From Podospora anserina (taxonomy: Eukaryota), in the NCBI GenBank assembly GCA_017654855.1, contig CM030336.1, positions 3,038,001 to 3,102,000 on the forward strand: a stretch of DNA of 64,000 nt, read 5' to 3'. The notes below the pieces were generated by a model. It saw only the letters and a program-made list of their open reading frames with translations. It did no database searches and was not told the DNA's origin. Positions 22,530 through 64,000 of this stretch are shown piece after piece (position 1 is the first letter of the stretch; each line of letters starts with the position of its first letter). The translations under genes were made by a program, and so were the position numbers.

Positions 22530-24291
<1,762 letters not shown>

Positions 24292-25214
24292 TAATACAGA
24301 TGGAGAAGAGGGTTTGATTATTTTGTCATGGGTGGAAGCATAGATTCTGGTCGATTTGATGTTGCTCCTATGTTTTAAACTGTGACCAAGATGTCCTGGG
24401 TGGGTTGCAAACCCCAATTGATAGTTGGAAGCAATGATCTGAGAGATATATCACAACTTGCATGAGTCAGTGATAAGTTGCTGGTGTTTCTTGAGATCTT
24501 TGTTCGTTTTGTCAAGCCCCTTTCTTGGGGGCCCCGCTATTTGTTACTCTTTGTTGCTAGGGCAACCCACGAACAGGGGCTTTCAGGGGCAATCGAATCT
24601 TTGAACCTTGTGGCTTCCATAATCAAAGGAAACTTTAAATGATTCGAAGCAATTTTGGTTGACAATGTAGCCATGCTCGAGAGAATGATGCAGGGGTGGT
24701 GTTGATGTTCTTTGAGCAGATGTACTTTTTTTTGTGTCTGCTAGCTGATCACCGCTGTAGGAAAGGCTACACATGCTGTCACAAGGTGCAAGGTTGACGT
24801 CCATCTATTCTATCCGGGAGCCACTAGCAGGCCCACCTGAGGCTGTCGGGCGTGACACAAATGATTCTGTACCTGCCCGCACTTTGCTACCTCCAGAAAC
24901 CCACTTAGAACTTGCACTACCATAATTTGCGTTCACTTGTTAACTTCAAAAACCAATCGCGATTACCAAGCCATAGAAAACGCTGGCGCTTGACGATGCA
25001 CCAACTATATTCCCCTCTCTTGATTGCCGCAATCCTACAACTATGCTCAGCTACCACACCTCTGATCGCCGAACCAGACCCTCACATTTGCGGCCTCAGT
25101 CTCAACAGCACCAAAGACCACCCCTTCACCAGTGTCCACGCCGGCCTTGACATATCCACCCTGAGCCTGCGCGACGACTCGGATAACCGGGGGGTGGGTG
25201 GGGGGTGGGGGAGG

Positions 25215-26640
25215 GGGAGTGTTACGCCATGGCGTTTGCCGACGACCACACCATCATCATCATCATCTCTCCCGACTGGCGGACCAACCTCAAGATCATC
25301 ACCATCTCGCACAACGCCATGAAGAAACGGGCTGACGAGAACGGTGTCACATTCGCCCCGGCCAAGTACGCCATGATGCACTTCCGGCAAACTCGAGACG
25401 ACAACCCGCCCCCCCAAGGACCTTCCGAAGAATGTCGGCATGTCGGCCGGCCAGTGCGTGCGCAAGCTGCAAGTCCCGGGTGTGATTTTCAACAATCATC
25501 TCAGCTGGATTGATCATGCCAGACATGTGAGTGGTGCACCCCGGATCTCTTTCCATGTTTTGCTCTTGCTGACCATGCCTTGGTTGCCGCAGCTTCGAGT
25601 CAAGGTTCTCAAAACCGAGCAGTACATGCGGCGAATCTCCAGCTCCATCAGAGGACCCCCGACGTGGCAGATGCGAAGTCTCTTCTGCTCCAATGTTCGA
25701 CCCGTGCTTTTCTACGCCAGCGCCGCGTGGTACCTGCCCGACAACAAGCGACAGCTGGAACACGGCCTTGAAGATGCTCGAAGCGGCTCAGAGGAAATGT
25801 CTGGTGGTTATCTCGGGCGCCGTCAAATATCCGCCCTCAGAATTGCTCCTGCACGAGTTGCAGCATTGGGACTGTCGACCGTCTCTTATGGTGGCCAATC
25901 CACAGTCCACCGTGCTCGTCATGATCAGCTTTCTGACCACTACAAGAATCTCCGCGCCATCGGTGACAGACTAATCAAGGTGTTTGGAAACAGGAAGTAT
26001 CGTCTCATCGCCTCGCAATATCCCATCATCAAGGCCTACGCACACGCTGCGCGCTACCACCCAAGACTACTGAGATGGAGCTTGAGCAGGCCTCCAACTG
26101 TCCCAAACGGCACCACCCGAAACACACTCTCGCCTCTCAGCTACCGACCCAGGGCCGAAGTACGCCAAGGACATCAATCCGAATCCCGTCAAAGGTAGGA
26201 GGTCAGAGCGCGTCTTCACCGTCGACGCTTGCTTGCTCGGCAATCATCGACACCCGATCAGTGTGTTCCGTTTCTCCCCCCCCTGCACCGCACACTCTCG
26301 GTACTAATAGATATGTCGCAGGCCTTTCGAAGGCTGGGGCAATACGACTTTTTGATTGCGTGGGCCGTTCGGCTTCCGCGGTACGATGGGAACAAACGCA
26401 GTTTTCGATGCGGCATGGTGTTTGGTGCGCCGGAACTTGACTTTGCGGCCGGTGGTGAGGTAAGTCCTCCTCTGATGTTGGTGACCTCTCCAGTTGGGTC
26501 TTGCTGCTAACCTGATGAAGCTTTCTTCCATGCTTTGATGGGGAGCGACATCGTGTCTGTGTGGTGTAAGTGTTGCCCTTTTGTCCATCAATCCCACGTG
26601 GTGTTTGCTCTTCTCTAACCAGCGTCACAGGTCCCTTTGA
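25215..26640 (+). mobile_element. 5'-truncated, frameshifted non-LTR (LINE/Tad-like) reverse transcriptase relic carrying spliceosomal intron signatures
   Basis: FADD at 25235-25246; GVTFAPAKYAMMHF; PGVIFNNHLSWIDH; RRIS..RGP...MRSLF..NVRPVLFYASAAW; LEAAQRKCLVVISGA..PSELLLHEL. At least two frameshifts. Introns 25527-25592, 26460-26520, 26566-26630. Confidence 0.85.
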
Positions 26641-26689
26641 TGCTGATCTGGCAGCTCGTTGTGTTGGTTGGGTTTTTTGTGGAACGGAA

Positions 26690-26930
26690 AAATGGTTGTT
26701 TTTTATATATTTTTTATACCTCTCTTTTTTTAAAAAAAATTTTTTACTGTTTTAATTTTTTTTTCCTTTTTTTATTTCTTTCATTTCTTTTTTCATTTTT
26801 TTTTTTATTTTTTTTTTTTTTATCTTTTTAAAAAAAATTTAAATTTTTCTTTTTAATTTTTTTTTTAAATTCTTTTTTTAATTTTTTTTTCTATTTTTTT
26901 CTTATTTTTTTTCTATTTTTTTTTTCGAAA
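26690..26930. repeat. ~240-bp T-rich low-complexity tract
   Basis: Runs of T with interspersed A/C and almost no G. Confidence 0.9.
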
Positions 26931-27329
26931 TTATTCATCATATTACGCGCCCTTCGCAGCGTAACCTACCTTGGCCTCAACAGCCCAGCGTCCCCGGGTG
27001 CTTGTGTTTCTTGAAAGTGTCAACATTCTCAAAAAGGAAGCTCGCTTCAGCTAGGCTTAGTCAATCGAACACTGTCAGTCACGGGTGACTGTTTCATTTT
27101 TTTAATTTTTTTTATTTTACACTGATAGTTCTTGCTCGCAATCGCGTGACCTCGGGTGTGACCGATCAGCGGCTTTCCATGTAGAAAGAATAGGCAGTGT
27201 GATTGATGCTAGTCTGCCCTCGCCACGTTTGGGATAGATGATGTGGCCGACGCGGCATGTGGATGAAGACACAGATAATAAGGAGGGAGGTGTCAATTGT
27301 CAAGGCGCCTTTCGCTTCGCAGGTCCACC

Positions 27330-28108
27330 GTCAGGCCACCTCTGGACTAGACGGATTCTCCGCTGCTAACAAGGACAACAGGAGCTCGGCCATGAGGATG
27401 TCAACAACAAAATTATGGGGATGGCGCTGCTTGAAAGAACATGGGAACTCTGGGTTGTCCCAGTGGGGCCGCGTGCATTGCTTCAGTCGGGGATCGATGG
27501 CAGCAAGGAGCGCTACTTCTTTTCTCGTCTTGCGCCAGTCGGAGGGAGCCTGGGGACACACCAAGCCATCGGCACACAAGACAGCCAACGGCGAGCACTC
27601 AATAGATGATACACACGCACCTCGTTCAAAACATTTTGCACACCACCGTCGCGCCAAAAAGGCGGGTCGTCATCGCCCTGCTCCCGCTCGCCCCATAACC
27701 ACCATCGAAGAGAGGATAGAAGTCAGGATAGTCCTCGCGGATCTTATCTATCATTTCGGGGCTCATTTTGCTCGCGGTGCGATTGATCAACTCCTGGTTC
27801 TGCTCGCGCAGATAGCGGAGGAGGTACTCGAAGCGACAGAGGCTGGTGCGCATAGACTCGGTTGAGGCGGGACGAAAGGTGACGGTGTTGACGCGGAGCG
27901 CGAGGCCGGACATCTCAGCGGCGACGAGGCGGCAGGTGTACGCGAGGCTCAGCTCGATCGGCCGGCCGTCCGAGACTCGCAGCTTGTTGCGGTCGAAGCT
28001 GTAGACGTAGCCATCGTCGACGAGGAGGTAGGCTCGGTAGATGGTGTCTCGAATCTCGGGAGGGGTGGGGGGGGGGAGAAGCCGCAGCAGGGGAAAGTGC
28101 GATGCCAT
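27330..28108 (-). pseudogene. Truncated/frameshifted member of a fungal F-box-like hypothetical family
   Basis: MASHFPLLRLL..PEIRDTIYRAYL..DGYVYSFDRNKL..DGRPIELSLAYTCRLVAAEMSGLALRVNTVTF. The frame loses protein-like character near 27700, and a second frame continues to 27331. Confidence 0.55.
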
Positions 28109-29148: not shown

Positions 29149-30754
29149 CTACTCCTTCTTCTCCCCGCCCTCGGCCTTGACAATTTCCCGCTGAGGCGGC
29201 GTGGTGGAGTGCCGGGAAGCACCCTCGGAAATCATGCACCCATGGCCCAGGCCGTCCTCAAAGTCCAGGTCCTCGAGGTAGTTCAGGTCCAGGCCGCGAA
29301 CCTCCTGCTCCTCGGTGGCGCGGATGTGGAGACCGGGAATCTTGTTGATGACAAACAGCAAGAGGCACGAGACGAAGAACGACCAGGCGGCGCAGGTGGT
29401 GGCACCGGCCAGTTGGAGACCCATCTGGCGGAAGTTGCGGTTCCACCAGCCACCTTCGTACGAGGCGCCCGACACGCCGTCGAGGGCGGGCACGAAGCTG
29501 GCCGCGAAGAAGCCGGTGAGGATGTCGCCGACGACACCGCCGATGCCGTGGATGGCAAAGATGTCGAGGCCGTCGTCGACCGAGAGGATGTACTTGTACT
29601 TGACGACGTAAAAGGAGCAGACCGAGGTGATGGCACCCACGAGGCAGGCCACGTACACGGGAACTGTTTCGGTCCCCTGTCAGCATTCCGCACACGGAGA
29701 AAGAGGGCCAAGAAGAGACGTACCAAATCCGGCAGCAGGCGTGATGCCGACCAGGCCCGCGATGATGCCCGAGCAGAAGCCCGTCAGGCTGAACTTCTTC
29801 TTGTACAGGTACTCAAGAATGACCCACGTGATGCCGCCACCGCACGCGGCCAGGTTCGTGTTCACCACGACGTAAATGGACCGCAGGCTCAGGTTGGCGG
29901 TGCTGGCGCCGTTGAAGGCGAACCAGCCGAACCAGATGAAGACGGTGCCGATGCACATGAGGAGCGGGCTGTGGGGCTTGTAGTGGGCAAGCTTGGACTT
30001 GCGGTCGCTGACGGTGGGGGCGACACCATGCTCGTTCAGACGGGGGCCCAGCATCATGGACCAGGCCAGGGCGCCGAAGCCGCTCGCAATGTGGACAGGG
30101 CCCGAACCGGCAAAGTCGTAGAGGCCCAAATTATACAACCAACCGGAAGGGTTCCACTCCCAGTATGCGAGGCTGTCGGGGTCGTTAGCAGACCGTCCGG
30201 CTGGGCTGGCTGTGTCAAAGAGGAGAGGACCAAACTCACAAGTAGTATACAAACGTCGTCCAGCAGAGCAGGAAGACCATGCTGGGAAAGAGGCGGCCGC
30301 GCTCCAGCATGGCTCCGGCCAAGATCATGGCGGTGGCGCTGACAAAGGTGAAGCCAAAGGCAGCATACAAGATGTCGGGGATGTCGCTGTTGGCAAGGCT
30401 GGGCTGGGCAAGGACATTTTTGAAGACGGCCAGGCTGAGATCACCGAGGATCGGGTTGGTGGTTCGGGACTGGTACAGGCTGTAGCCGTAGATCCAGTAC
30501 TGGATGCCGCAGGCGCAGGCACAGAACAGGGACTGCAGCACCATGGTCAGAGCCGCCTTGCGGCGGTGCATGCCCGCATAGAGGAAGCCGATGGCGGGCG
30601 TGATTTGCCAGCACAGGATGGTGCAGACAAGCAGCCAGGCCAGGTCGCCCTTGTCGTAGGGCGCGTTGAGATCCTGGGTGAGCGGGTCACCGCCGTCGGG
30701 GTTGGAGGACCATTCCGGCCACTCTGTAACGGGGACGATCTCTGGTTCGGCCAT
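29149..30754 (-). CDS. Ammonium transporter (Amt/Mep family)
   Basis: GAMLERGR, DFAGSGPVH, WFGWFAFNG, GIIAGLVGITPAAGF, DDGLDIFAIHGIGG (twin His retained), EQEVRGLD. Two introns (~30174-30239, ~29664-29723). Confidence 0.96.
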
Positions 30755-30888
30755 GAGCGACGGGAGCACGGGAAGTGGTGAGTGAGGGGTGTGGGTGGCG
30801 GGAGAGATTGGAGGGCAAGACTCCTGGACGATGGGGAGGTGACGTCGCCAGTATTTGTACGCAACGGCCGTCCCCGTCCAGTACGGTA

Positions 30889-31196
30889 TTATCAGCGACC
30901 GGGGCCATTTCCCGGCCCAGGGGTCTCTGTCTCTCTCTCTCTGTGTGTGTGTGTGTCTGGGCGAGATAAGAGAATGGTTTGTCTACCTATGGGAAAGATG
31001 CGATGCTGCTGATAAGAGCTGGCTTGGCCTGCCACCCTGCCTGGTGAGAGGGCTTATCAGTCTCCACAAGCCGCTGCCAAGGCCGTTGGCTGCTGTGATA
31101 TTGCATGCGAGGTCGACGGCCGATCCGTGGGCTTGGGTTTTCTCGCAGACCGCATTCCATTACTGAAACGGGTTGGAATAACCCATGTGTTTATCA
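30889..31196. promoter_or_regulatory. Cluster of five HGATAA sites upstream of the ammonium transporter (AreA/NIT2-type nitrogen regulation)
   Basis: TTATCA 30889, AGATAA 30964, TGATAA 31010, TTATCA 31054, TTATCA 31191. Confidence 0.7.
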
Positions 31197-35821: not shown

Positions 35822-36522
35822 CTACGCCCCGTCATGTACCGCTCCCCTCGCCCCCGGACCCCTCAGCGGATCCTCCACCTGCGACCCCCACTCACCATCT
35901 AACATGAACGCGTCAGTCAAGATCGCCTTTATTTTGTCGCGAAAAAAAGAAAAAGAAAAAAAAGAAAAAGAAAAAAAGAAAAAGAAAAAAAGAAAAAGAA
36001 AAAAAAGAAAAAGAAAAAGAAGAAAATCAACTCACATGTGTACTCCCTCTGGTAGTAGTCGACGTACTCGTCGTTGCCGCCGTCGTCGTCGTCGGCTTCG
36101 TCGTCTTCGTTCCTCCCCTCCCAAACCGAAACCCTCTTTGCGCGCCCTCCTTGCGGCCCCGGAGCCTTCCCCCTCCGCCTCCTGTGGACGTGACGCTTCT
36201 GTTGCGCTCTTGCGCTCTCGGTTATCATATTGATCAGCCAGCCGAACGGCTCCCACAGGAGCTCGAAGGGGAGGGTGAGGAGGCGGGCGAGGTGGCGGGA
36301 GAGGCTGGTGATGTTTTCGACGAGGAAGAGGACGAGCCACAGGGCGTAGGGGACGAGGAGGAGGACGAGGAGGAGGAGGATGAGGGGGGTGAGGAGGGGG
36401 CTGGTGAGGAAGAGGATGGAGGAGGTGAGGGTGAGGATTATTTTGAGGGGGAGGAGGAGGATGGAGAGGAATAGGGAGACGAGGGGTCGGGATTCGATGT
36501 GGATGAAGTCGAGGCAGATCAT
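35822..36522 (-). CDS. Hypothetical small membrane protein with Leu-rich hydrophobic N-half
   Basis: MICLDFIHIESRPLVSLFLSILLLPLK..., basic then acidic tail. GTGAGT intron filled with (TTTTTC)n, branch ACTGAC and TAG acceptor ~35900, giving YGEWGSQVEDPLRGPGARGAVHDGA*. Start uncertain. Confidence 0.5.
35941..36027. repeat. (GAAAAA)n-type poly-purine tract within an intron
   Basis: Read directly; a similar T-rich tract lies at 36528-36561. Confidence 0.9.
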
Positions 36523-36930
36523 ATCTATTTTTTTTCTTTTTTTTTTTCCTTTTTTTTTTTTGGTATGAATGCTGGTTCGGTTATGTGTTGGATGGTGTTG
36601 TTTGATGTTTTGAGACAGCACTTGGAATTTTACATGCGAGGTTGGTAAGGTAGGATAGGTTAGGTAGGGAAATAGGGAGGAGTGTGCTGCATATTTGGAA
36701 GGAGACGAGATTGGGATGGATGGCTTTGTCGCTTCTTTGTGCGGGCTGCAACATCTACAGCCCAGCCTTTTTGAGAAGAAGCCTCCTCGAAGGTCAACTC
36801 CCGCAATCCTTTGTTATCGGCTCCCTCCTCTCCCGCCGGGACCTGTCGCACTGGTGTGCCCGCTTTCCATCAGCGCCATGATCTCGTCCTCGGCATCTGG
36901 CTCCCGCTCGGCGGTGGGATCACCGTAGTG

Positions 36931-63215: not shown

Positions 63216-64000
63216 TCACAAACTCTTCCCCGAAGTCCAAGTGACATCCTTAACGTCCCCAACCCAGGCATAACTCGGATTCTCAGTGTAGCAATAGTCG
63301 ACCACGCCCACCGGCTCAGGAATCGTTAGCTCCTCGCCTTCCCCGAGCGGCTCGTCGGTGTACTCCCTATGCTCGACCTTTTCGCAGACAATGTTGCTGT
63401 TGACGGTGGCGGTCGACACTCCCGAGAAGCGGACCCTAAAGCAAACCCAACATAAGCATCATGGTCAAAAAGAAAGAAAAAAAAACTAAAGAAAAAACTA
63501 GAAAAGAAAAACTCACGGATTCTCGGCATCCAACTCCAAACACTCCCACTCAGCCCTCAAACTCAACTCCTTCCTCCCCTCATCCCACCTAAACTGGCAT
63601 TTGTATGGCCACAACGGCCCCTCGGGAACCTGAGCACCACCATCATACCCCATCTCGCACTCCCACCACCCATCCCCGGCAGACTTGCCCTGGTAAACAG
63701 GATTAGGATATCTAAACCCCCTGTTTGTCTGGAGGATAATCTCAAACGATATCGAGCCGTTGTAGGTACTGAAATACGAAAACTGCCATTTGGGACTGTA
63801 GATCGAGGAGAGTGTGCACGAGTCTTGGGTGGCAGGGACGGGGTCCTCGATGGAGTACGGCTGGAGGGTGACGATCGTGCCGAGGGTGCCTGTGAGGGAA
63901 ACGGTCGAGTCGGTCGTGGGGACTGTGCAGAATTTCTTGAGGTGGGTGGGCGAGGAGGGGATAGGCTCTGTAGTGCATAAGAGGGGGAGGGGGAGGGTTC
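63216..64000 (-). CDS. 3' part of a hypothetical Cys/Trp-containing protein (start outside window)
   Basis: Open frame from the window end: ...CTLSSIYSPKWQFSYF...WWECEMG...WPYKCQFRWD..LSLRAEWECLELDAENP, intron 63436-63516, then VRFSGVSTATV...TWTSGKSL*. Confidence 0.7.

What the first reader, a model, noticed from the sequence alone, without database searches (positions are those of the whole stretch)
25215..26640. LINE-type reverse transcriptase sequence interrupted by spliceosomal introns
Seen: clear non-LTR RT and thumb motifs, with a GTGAGT..GCTGAC..GCAG intron at 25527-25592. Removing it restores WIDHARH-LRVKV...RRIS, the usual W..H....K spacing; it is 66 nt, in frame and stop-free. Two more canonical GTAAGT..CTAAC..AG introns follow at 26460-26520 and 26566-26630, flanking a 45-nt exon. 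Known: retrotransposition through spliced RNA removes sense introns, and fungal Tad-like LINEs are normally intronless. Inference: this derives from a domesticated, spliced RT gene family or an intron-retaining retroelement lineage, not an ordinary LINE copy. This copy is frameshifted. It is my best candidate for an undescribed system in the window.
Basis: partly seen in the sequence, partly recalled or inferred. Interest (0 to 1): 0.75.

Follow-up and report, generated by a model that had tools for sequence, protein, structure and literature searches.

The report
Dead LINE fragment with real intron
This is a broken, long-dead piece of a fungal jumping gene (a LINE reverse transcriptase) in Podospora anserina that still carries a genuine small intron, probably inherited from its parent element, which is unusual for LINEs but not unheard of.

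Summary
Window 25229-26065 (+) is a 5'-truncated relic of a fungal non-LTR (LINE) reverse transcriptase, running from the FADD motif through the thumb. It has four frame changes. It lies in Podospora anserina chromosome 5 and is annotated as hypothetical gene Pa_5_7117.

The 66-nt segment 25527-25592 has canonical GTGAGT, CTGAC and CAG signals, is phase 0, in frame and stop-free. An ORF from an independently assembled 1362-nt contig (P0001) is identical to the window except that exactly these 22 codons are missing. That most likely reflects spliced RNA. Removing the segment makes the protein colinear with RVT_1-bearing relatives.

A 30%-identical homologue (P0005) has a 16-residue insertion at the same codon boundary. 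It reads like a translated intron (VS...TN..K). ORFs of three further lineages begin just downstream of the site. So the intron probably comes from the parent element, not from chance.

The "domesticated RT gene" reading fails. Catalytic motifs 1-4 are absent, and two frameshifts are shared by all four Podospora species.

The two 3' intron-like motifs are present, but they lie outside recognisable RT homology and are unverified. No RNA reads could be laid and no homologue DNA could be fetched. Introns in Neurospora Tad transcripts are already in print.

The parts
24996..25190 (+). Upstream ORF (MHQLYSPLL..., hydrophobic N-terminus). It is not RT-like. The sister-species gene models fuse it to the RT relic.
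   Evidence: P0002, P0008 and P0009 all start with this ORF, which shows the locus is orthologous. No similarity to the RT proteins was found. This exact ORF is not in the protein collection.
25186..25228 (+). G-rich tract at the 5' break of the RT relic.
   Evidence: RT similarity starts directly after it.
25229..25404 (+). RT palm remnant in frame A: FADD (25235-25246) through ..ENGVTFAPAKYAMMHF.
   Evidence: tblastn with P0012 (an RVT_1 protein) covers 25229-25447 at E 4.5e-6, and P0005 residues 4-23 are 70% identical at 25331-25390. Weak Pfam RVT_1 match to profile positions 146-199 of 205.
25405..25415 (+). Frameshift 1, in a C run (frame A to frame B). It is shared by all the Podospora species models.
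   Evidence: every sister-species gene model needs a frame jump here.
25416..25526 (+). End of the palm (..VPGVIFNNHLSWIDHARH), frame B. It contains the ATG of the annotated CDS at 25440.
25527..25592 (+). 66-nt phase-0 spliceosomal intron (GTGAGT..CTGAC..CAG) at the palm/thumb boundary. It is in frame and stop-free.
   Evidence: P0001 (source Logan, 1362-nt contig) lacks exactly these 22 codons. P0013 and P0012 have no residues here.
25593..25752 (+). Thumb part 1 (LRVKVLKTEQYMRRISSSIRGPPTWQMRSLF..AAWYLPDNKR), frame B.
   Evidence: It is similar to P0003, P0005, P0010, P0011 and P0016.
25753..25861 (+). Thumb part 2 (SWNTALKMLEAAQRKCLVVISGAVKYPPSELLLHEL), frame C, after frameshift 2. Frameshift 2 is specific to P. 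anserina; sister species read DNKRHADSWNTAL continuously.
25865..25891 (+). IGTVDRLL in frame A, after frameshift 3 (P. anserina only) and before frameshift 4 (shared).
   Evidence: P0009 runs on from here into a stop.
25896..26065 (+). The last recognisable RT C-terminal similarity (QSTVHRARHD...KAYAHAARYHP), frame B.
   Evidence: tblastn with P0003 reaches 26000; alignment A3. No CCHC knuckle or later ORF2 similarity was found downstream.
25440..26198 (+). ORF of the annotated gene Pa_5_7117 / PODANS_5_7117 and of the contig-derived P0001. It ends at TAG 26196-26198.
26195..26321 (+). Candidate 127-nt intron (GTAGGA..TACTAAT..CAG). Only gene models use it.
   Evidence: P0001 ends at the TAG inside it, so that contig is not spliced here.
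26460..26520 (+). Intron-like motif GTAAGT..CTAAC..AAG, 61 nt. Unverified.
   Evidence: It fails the strict YAG rule, and the official model P0006 reads through it.
26566..26630 (+). Intron-like motif GTAAGT..CTAAC..CAG, 65 nt. Unverified.
   Evidence: It is one of the 5 strict plus-strand hits in the window.

Best explanation
The locus is a dead relic of a Tad/I-type fungal LINE ORF2. It is 5'-truncated at RT motif 5 and runs through the thumb. It is fixed at one orthologous site in the Podospora anserina species complex and was already frameshifted in their common ancestor. It cannot make a reverse transcriptase.

It is still transcribed, as the annotated hypothetical gene Pa_5_7117. The spliceosome removes a genuine 66-nt phase-0 intron that sits exactly at the palm/thumb boundary.

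The intron was most likely part of the parent element, not a later accident. That implies a LINE lineage whose intron-retaining RNA served as the template for retrotransposition. The in-frame, stop-free state would let such unspliced RNA still encode a full-length protein.

Status of each step:
- Shown: RT identity, truncation, frameshifts, orthology, splice signals, and colinearity after removal.
- Inferred from one contig-derived ORF: splicing in RNA.
- Inferred from protein sequences only: the same intron in other copies.
- Pure inference: the template and isoform mechanism.

The two 3' intron-like motifs are probably real introns of the same transcription unit. Their origin (LINE 3' part or flanking host sequence) is open.
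For: RT identity:
- FADD plus colinear similarity to RVT_1 proteins (tblastn P0012 E 4.5e-6; BLASTP P0008 against P0013 E 4e-11).
- P0013 and P0012 pass Pfam RVT_1 at 3.6e-32 and 2.6e-17.
- The nearest structural clusters to P0013 are Ascomycota RVT_1 clusters. Part of their members also carry RNase_H (21-88% across rows 2-4) or Exo_endo_phos_2 (32% in row 3). This is a lead only.

Relic status:
- No motifs 1-4 upstream.
- Four frame changes.
- Two of them are needed by all three sister-species models as well.
- The frameshifted reading is confirmed by the independent contig ORF P0001.

Orthology: P0002, P0008 and P0009 start with the same upstream ORF.

Intron:
- Canonical signals.
- A-poor and T-rich (A 0.11, T 0.33, against 0.22-0.23 and 0.20-0.23 in the flanks).
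- Strict-pattern enrichment.
- P0001 lacks exactly the 22 codons, on a contig of only 1362 nt.
- 66 nt is close to the species mean intron length of 79 nt (PMC2441463, passages read).

Ancestral intron:
- BLASTP of P0005 against P0013 (E 5e-25) shows one 16-residue gap opposite VSVESNIWIMFTNLPK, at the same boundary as the window's 22 residues.
- By the codon table, VS fits GTNAGY, TN fits ACTAAC, and the final K fits AAG.
- P0003, P0010/P0016 and P0011 (4 of 4 other non-Podospora ingroup ORFs, representing 3 lineages) start 8-11 residues after the site.
- In the tree, Podospora+P0003 and P0005 are separate ingroup branches.
- In P. pseudopauciseta the segment keeps VS, LLLLTMP and LPQ while 4 of its 22 codons differ.
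Against: - No RNA reads were seen. The spliced form rests on one ORF from a contig whose library type I cannot see.
- The official annotation (P0006) and the P. pseudopauciseta model (P0009) read through the 66 nt.
- The intron reading of P0005 comes from amino acids alone. V-S at the start and L-P-K/Q at the end could instead be conserved coding residues of a lineage-specific loop.
- The ORF starts of P0003, P0010, P0016 and P0011 fall on a conserved Met. A frame break anywhere in the preceding few dozen codons would give the same start.
- P0012 and P0013 have no insertion, though I cannot tell whether their contigs are DNA or cDNA.
- Retrotransposition normally strips sense introns.
- Only one copy exists in the window. 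Its copy number in the genome could not be checked.
Confidence: 0.68

Rival explanations
1. Chance or cryptic intron. The 66 nt is an ancestral coding loop of this RT subfamily, or a later insertion. In the decayed Podospora copy it happens to carry GT..CTGAC..AG and is spliced as a cryptic intron. The P0005 insertion is then a homologous or coincidental protein loop, not an intron.
For: - Both insertions are in frame and open, and they share V-S at the start and L-P-(Q/K) at the end, as conserved residues would.
- Cryptic splicing of LINE RNA is known for L1. PMC1636488 cites it; the details are recalled.
- P0012 and P0013 lack the segment.
- The AlphaFold model of P0005 was too poor to show whether the segment is structured.
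Against: - Apart from the end residues, the middles of the two insertions show no similarity and differ in length (22 against 16 residues). Both look like translated T-rich DNA (F, L, I, S, W).
- A phase-0 read-through of GTRAGT must give exactly V-S.
- ORFs of three other lineages break here.
- The exon junction CAT|CTT is not a proto-splice site.
- Strict intron motifs are about 50-fold enriched in this 1.4 kb over the Markov expectation.
Confidence: 0.2
2. The segment is not spliced at all. The 66 nt is simply translated or untranslated pseudogene sequence, and P0001 comes from an intron-aware gene call or from a DNA variant, not from RNA.
For: - The official model P0006 and the sister-species model P0009 read through the segment.
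- I could not see how ORFs were called on Logan contigs, and I could not lay reads.
Against: - P0001 ends at the genomic TAG and ignores the other model introns, which is how a plain ORF call on a contig behaves.
- A 1362-nt contig in unique sequence is transcript-sized.
- The deletion is exactly GT..AG bounded.
Confidence: 0.07
3. Domesticated, spliced RT-derived host gene. Pa_5_7117 encodes a functional protein derived from the RT thumb and is kept by selection.
For: - The locus is syntenic in four Podospora species and carries gene models in all of them.
- RT-derived segments differ less between P. anserina and P. pseudopauciseta (5 of 135 residues) than the upstream ORF (5 of 65) or the intron (4 of 22). 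The intron comparison as actually run (4 of 22 against 4 of 82 flanking codons) gave Fisher p about 0.06; the numbers are small.
Against: - There are no catalytic motifs 1-4.
- Two frameshifts are shared and two more are private to P. anserina. About half of the 230-residue product is therefore out-of-frame sequence.
- The models of the four species disagree on exon structure.
- No Pfam family passes the cut-off.
Confidence: 0.04

Closest known systems
Tad (Tad1-1), the LINE-like retrotransposon of Neurospora crassa
   Same: It is a non-LTR element of a Sordariales fungus. The FADD-type RT and thumb here are of the same general type. Introns have been reported in Tad transcripts: Sewell and Kinsey 1996, seen only as a citation in PMC1636488.
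   Different: The window holds only a truncated, frameshifted relic. I could not read Sewell and Kinsey or obtain a Tad sequence. Whether the Tad intron sits at the same palm/thumb boundary is therefore unknown. If it does, this finding is already known.
Penelope-like and Athena retroelements
   Same: These are retroelements whose genomic copies keep spliceosomal introns (Arkhipova et al. 2003, seen only as a citation in PMC1636488; abstract of PMC4209133 in the listing).
   Different: They belong to a different RT clade (telomerase-like, with GIY-YIG endonuclease; this detail is recalled). Here the RT matches Pfam RVT_1 relatives whose nearest clusters carry APE and RNase H domains.
Cryptic splicing of human L1 RNA (spliced integrated copies)
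   Same: LINE sense RNA is recognised by the spliceosome. PMC1636488 cites introns in L1 transcripts.
   Different: In L1 the spliced RNAs give intron-less, defective copies and the sites are not a conserved gene structure (recalled). Here the intron seems to persist at one codon boundary across 30%-identical copies.
Ogre LTR retrotransposons of legumes
   Same: They have an intron inside the pol region. Spliced RNA serves translation, while unspliced RNA is the copied genome. This is the mechanism I propose by analogy (recalled, not read here).
   Different: Ogre is an LTR element from plants, and its intron separates reading frames. Here the intron is in frame within a LINE ORF2.
rvt genes (single-copy RT-related cellular genes of fungi)
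   Same: They are RT-derived sequence at a fixed host locus (recalled: Gladyshev and Arkhipova 2011).
   Different: rvt genes are intact and catalytically complete. This locus lacks motifs 1-4 and is frameshifted.

Membership tests
Non-LTR (LINE) reverse transcriptase, Tad/I type | RT motif 5 (F/Y-x-D-D), followed by the ..G..F...K...HF and LGV..D..L.W..H blocks, in colinear order | tested here: met
   FADD is at 25235-25246. The region aligns colinearly with P0012 and P0013.
Non-LTR (LINE) reverse transcriptase, Tad/I type | Pfam RVT_1 above the gathering score on the locus's own translation | tested here: not met
   E 0.13, 12.4 bits against 29.6, because only profile positions 146-199 of 205 remain. 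The relatives P0013 and P0012 do pass.
Non-LTR (LINE) reverse transcriptase, Tad/I type | RT motifs 1-4, APE endonuclease, RNase H, CCHC knuckle, ORF1 | tested here: not met
   Nothing upstream of 25229 or downstream of about 26065 matches P0013, P0015 or P0016. The copy is a fragment, so it is filed as a relic of the family and not as an element.
Non-LTR (LINE) reverse transcriptase, Tad/I type | Multiple dispersed copies, target-site duplications, A-rich or defined 3' end | not testable with these tools
   There is a single copy in the window and no whole genome is held. The 3' boundary is unknown, so no search for target-site duplications was made.
Spliceosomal intron | GT..AG ends, fungal 5' consensus GTRAGT, branch CTRAY near the 3' end, typical length | tested here: met
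   GTGAGT, CTGAC 20 nt from the end, CAG, 66 nt. The species mean is 79 nt (PMC2441463).
Spliceosomal intron | Precise removal in RNA | tested here: inconclusive
   P0001 lacks exactly the 22 codons, but the contig's library type is unseen.
Intron-retaining retroelement lineage | The same intron position in independent, diverged copies at the DNA level | tested here: inconclusive
   There is protein-level support only: the P0005 insertion at the identical boundary and ORF breaks in 3 other lineages. No homologue DNA was obtainable.
Domesticated RT-derived gene | Intact, conserved reading frame across species | tested here: not met
   There are four frame changes, two of them shared by all species models.

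The most novel reading that the evidence does not exclude
A deep lineage of ascomycete Tad/I-type LINEs has carried a phase-0 spliceosomal intron at the palm/thumb junction of ORF2 through many rounds of retrotransposition. The intron may be kept in frame.

This would require intron-retaining RNA to be the copied template. Because the intron is open in frame, the unspliced RNA still encodes a full-length ORF2 protein that can act on its own RNA. The element would then make two RT isoforms.

The P0016 family may carry a second such segment before the CCHC knuckle.
Probability: 0.38. Interest if true: 0.6.

Novelty: new member of a known kind. Interest (0 to 1): 0.35.

Why it matters
The locus itself is an ordinary dead transposon fragment that gene predictors have turned into a hypothetical protein in four Podospora genomes. 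That annotation should be read as a transcribed pseudogene.

The wider point is the intron. LINEs copy themselves through RNA, so a sense intron should be lost at the first jump. If one intron position really is shared by copies only 30% identical, this fungal LINE lineage must copy unspliced RNA.

That would give a natural system for asking how a LINE transcript escapes or exploits the spliceosome. It would also bear on whether intron retention affects RNA-silencing surveillance of transposons in fungi.

The idea is directly testable with existing Podospora RNA-seq data and with the genomes that hold the relatives.

Tried and rejected
- **Whole genome:** none is held for this window, so there is no copy-number or genome-wide search.
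- **Sequencing runs:** no RNA holder listed.
- **Read laying:** No junction reads were seen.
- **The search for homologous proteins, 'longer':** the window ORF and P0005 each gave no hit at E <= 0.001, among 3047 and 2293 candidates.
- **Representative search:** 5 hits at E <= 0.001. I dropped P0004, a 579-residue repetitive protein that matches only the out-of-frame part of the query (residues 133-172).
- **Collection scans:** two metagenome-contig scans and two viral-contig scans confirmed no relative, so no homologue DNA was obtained.
- **PDB profile search:** only chance-level DNMT3 matches (E 0.45 and above).
- **ESM Atlas with P0005:** no named family at 0.9 or more.
- **Rfam on 24300-27600:** one chance-level hit (E 0.72).
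- **AlphaFold of P0005 with 8 rows:** mean pLDDT 53.7, with residues 1-78 below 50. It was too poor to judge the insertion, and no fold search was run.
- **Exact look-up:** two of the five references (starting at 25431 and 26316) did not start at the ATG, so they are void. The ORFs 24996-25319 and 25229-25510 are not in the collection, which shows nothing.
- **Papers:** ten searches found no description of an ORF2 intron in a fungal LINE. Sewell and Kinsey 1996, PMC1065258 and PMC47572 are not held. The transposon table of the P. anserina genome paper is an old .doc supplement that I could not read; it may list LINE families.
- **CCHC idea:** I considered that the 45-nt mini-exon encodes a decayed CCHC knuckle. 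I rejected it because tblastn shows nothing beyond chance there.

Full report
**What is in the sequence**

On the plus strand, RT-like coding sequence starts abruptly after a G-rich tract, at 25229. FADD lies at 25235-25246. Stop-to-stop ORFs show the homologous reading moving through several frames:
- 25229 to about 25404 in one frame.
- A shift inside the C run at 25405-25415.
- 25416-25752 in a second frame, which includes the 66-nt segment.
- 25753-25861 in a third frame.
- 25865-25891 back in the first frame.
- 25896 to about 26065 in the second frame again.

No second copy exists in the window. No whole genome is held.

**Is it a reverse transcriptase?**

The window's own translation gives only a weak Pfam RVT_1 match: E 0.13, 12.4 bits against a cut-off of 29.6, covering profile positions 146-199 of 205.

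An exhaustive search of 1.84 billion representatives with ORF 25377-26198 found 5 proteins at E <= 0.001. I dropped one of them, P0004, a repetitive protein that matches only the out-of-frame tail.

A profile of the real hits then found 9 proteins at E <= 0.01 among 4708 candidates. These include P0012 and P0013, which pass RVT_1 at 2.6e-17 and 3.6e-32.
- P0012 hits window 25229-25447 by tblastn at E 4.5e-6.
- The sister-species model P0008 aligns colinearly with P0013 from FADD through the thumb at E 4e-11.
- The nearest structural clusters to P0013 are Ascomycota RVT_1 clusters in which part of the members carry RNase_H (21-88% across rows 2-4) or Exo_endo_phos_2 (32% in row 3). This is a lead only.

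That domain set is the make-up of I/Tad-type non-LTR elements, by my own knowledge. Nothing in the window matches RT motifs 1-4, an endonuclease, RNase H or the CCHC knuckle.

**Where it comes from**

Cluster look-ups name the locus as PODANS_5_7117 of Podospora anserina S mat+, chromosome 5 (P0006). Gene models numbered _507117 exist in three sister species:
- P. pseudoanserina (P0002)
- P. bellae-mahoneyi (P0008)
- P. pseudopauciseta (P0009)

All three models begin with the non-RT ORF that lies at 24996-25190 in the window, so the locus is orthologous.

All three also need a frame jump at the C run and another after ..DRLLW. These two frameshifts therefore predate the species. The other two frame changes are private to P. 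anserina. The sister species read DNKRHADSWNTALKML and HELRI(G/E)TVDRLLW continuously. The independent contig ORF P0001 confirms the frameshifted P. anserina reading.

The four species' models disagree on exon structure. They are predictor stitching, not evidence of a gene.

**The 66-nt segment**

*Signals.* GTGAGT is at 25527, CTGAC at 25569-25573, and CAG ends at 25592. The segment is phase 0, 66 nt and open in frame. It is A-poor and T-rich compared with its flanks.

*Chance.* A strict intron pattern hits 5 times on the plus strand of the whole window, and 2 of those hits lie in this 1.4 kb. The Markov expectation is about 2 per 64 kb per strand.

*Splicing.* P0001 is a 230-residue ORF from a 1362-nt Logan contig. 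It is identical to the window from the ATG at 25440 to the TAG at 26196-26198, except that exactly the 22 codons are missing. It also ignores the other introns that the gene models propose. That is what a plain ORF call on a spliced transcript contig would give. I rate this as probable splicing, not proof. The official model P0006 and the model P0009 read through the segment.

*Fit to relatives.* Without the segment, the distance from the W of L.W..H to the (W/R)G of the thumb is 28 residues in the window. It is also 28 in P0013 and in P0005 minus its insertion (my count on A3). The site lies about 10 residues after the end of the RVT_1 match in P0013, which is the palm/thumb boundary.

**Is the intron older than the relic?**

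P0005 comes from ENA (333 residues, on a 3013-nt contig). It is about 30% identical to the Podospora sequence.

BLASTP of P0005 against P0013 (E 5e-25) opens a single 16-residue gap opposite VSVESNIWIMFTNLPK. This is at exactly the boundary where the window has its 22 residues.

By the codon table:
- A phase-0 read-through of GTRAGT must give V-S.
- T-N can be ACTAAC.
- The final K can be AAG, which would sit 10 nt after the branch A.

The middles of the two insertions are unrelated and of different length.

Of the other non-Podospora ingroup ORFs, 4 of 4 start at a Met 8-11 residues after the site. These are P0003, P0010, P0016 and P0011. They represent three lineages, since P0010 and P0016 are 92% identical. 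This is as expected if a non-open intron lies just upstream. However, any break in the preceding few dozen codons would give the same result.

In a small tree (8 rows, 123 columns), Podospora groups with P0003 (support 100/99) and apart from P0005. P0012/P0013 sit on a long branch.

Together this favours an intron that was present in the parent element and in the common ancestor of these copies. I could not see any homologue DNA. I also cannot tell whether the contigs of P0012 and P0013 are DNA or cDNA.

**The 3' motifs**

The motifs at 26460-26520 (GTAAGT..CTAAC..AAG) and 26566-26630 (GTAAGT..CTAAC..CAG) are present and flank 45 nt. The second passes the strict scan. The first fails it because of its AAG acceptor.

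They lie about 400 nt beyond the last RT similarity. Joined to the upstream frame, the mini-exon soon meets a stop (my reading). The official model reads through the first motif.

A further candidate at 26195-26321 is used by the models but not by P0001's contig.

The clustering of good intron motifs suggests a real multi-intron transcription unit. Whether these pieces derive from the LINE's 3' part or from host sequence is open.

**Known context**

I could not read the Tad paper, so the position of the Tad intron is unknown to me.

Ten full-text searches found no description of an ORF2 intron in a fungal LINE.

The P. anserina genome paper gives a mean intron length of 79 nt and 1.27 introns per CDS (PMC2441463, passages). 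Its transposon table is a supplement I could not open.

**Verdict**

This is a transcribed LINE pseudogene with a genuine intron. The locus itself is ordinary. The intron is probably a legacy of an intron-retaining LINE lineage, which is the interesting part and remains to be shown at the DNA and RNA level.

Noticed in passing
P0016, P0015, P0010 and P0011 (relatives, not in the window): Before the CCHC knuckle, P0016 and P0015 carry about 20 extra residues (..RRKAK VRFTSQGKTT.RIDGFSLWG ISSDKCECG) compared with P0013. P0010 stops inside this stretch, and P0011 ends shortly after the same point. This may be a second intron of the lineage, read through in some copies.
   Followed up: partly
window 24996-25190 (+): This ORF has a hydrophobic, signal-peptide-like start (MHQLYSPLLIAAILQLCSATTPLIA..). 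The sister-species gene models fuse it to the RT relic. It could be the first exon of a host gene into which the LINE inserted.
   Followed up: partly
window 26690-26930: A long T-rich, low-complexity tract with internal 76%-identical repeats (26699-26828 against 26797-26925). Similar tracts lie near 35940-36024, 36519-36561 and 63467-63510.
   Followed up: no
window 25186-25228: A G-rich tract at the 5' edge of the relic. Judging from the sister-species protein models (..DSDNQSFRWGEGECYAMAFADD), it is longer in P. anserina, which suggests local expansion.
   Followed up: no
window about 23800-23930: A dinucleotide (CT/GA) repeat, seen as long SLSL.. and RERE.. translations. It lies inside the gene that ends at 24291. 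By eye that gene looks like a PTH11-type fungal membrane protein (not tested).
   Followed up: no
window 25229-25891 against P0009: Between P. anserina and P. pseudopauciseta, RT-derived segments differ at 5 of 135 residues, the upstream ORF at 5 of 65, and the intron at 4 of 22. This is a weak hint of uneven constraint. The numbers are too small to interpret.
   Followed up: partly
window 29149-30982 (-): The long minus-strand ORFs look by eye like an ammonium transporter gene with at least one strict intron motif (30173-30239). Not tested.
   Followed up: no
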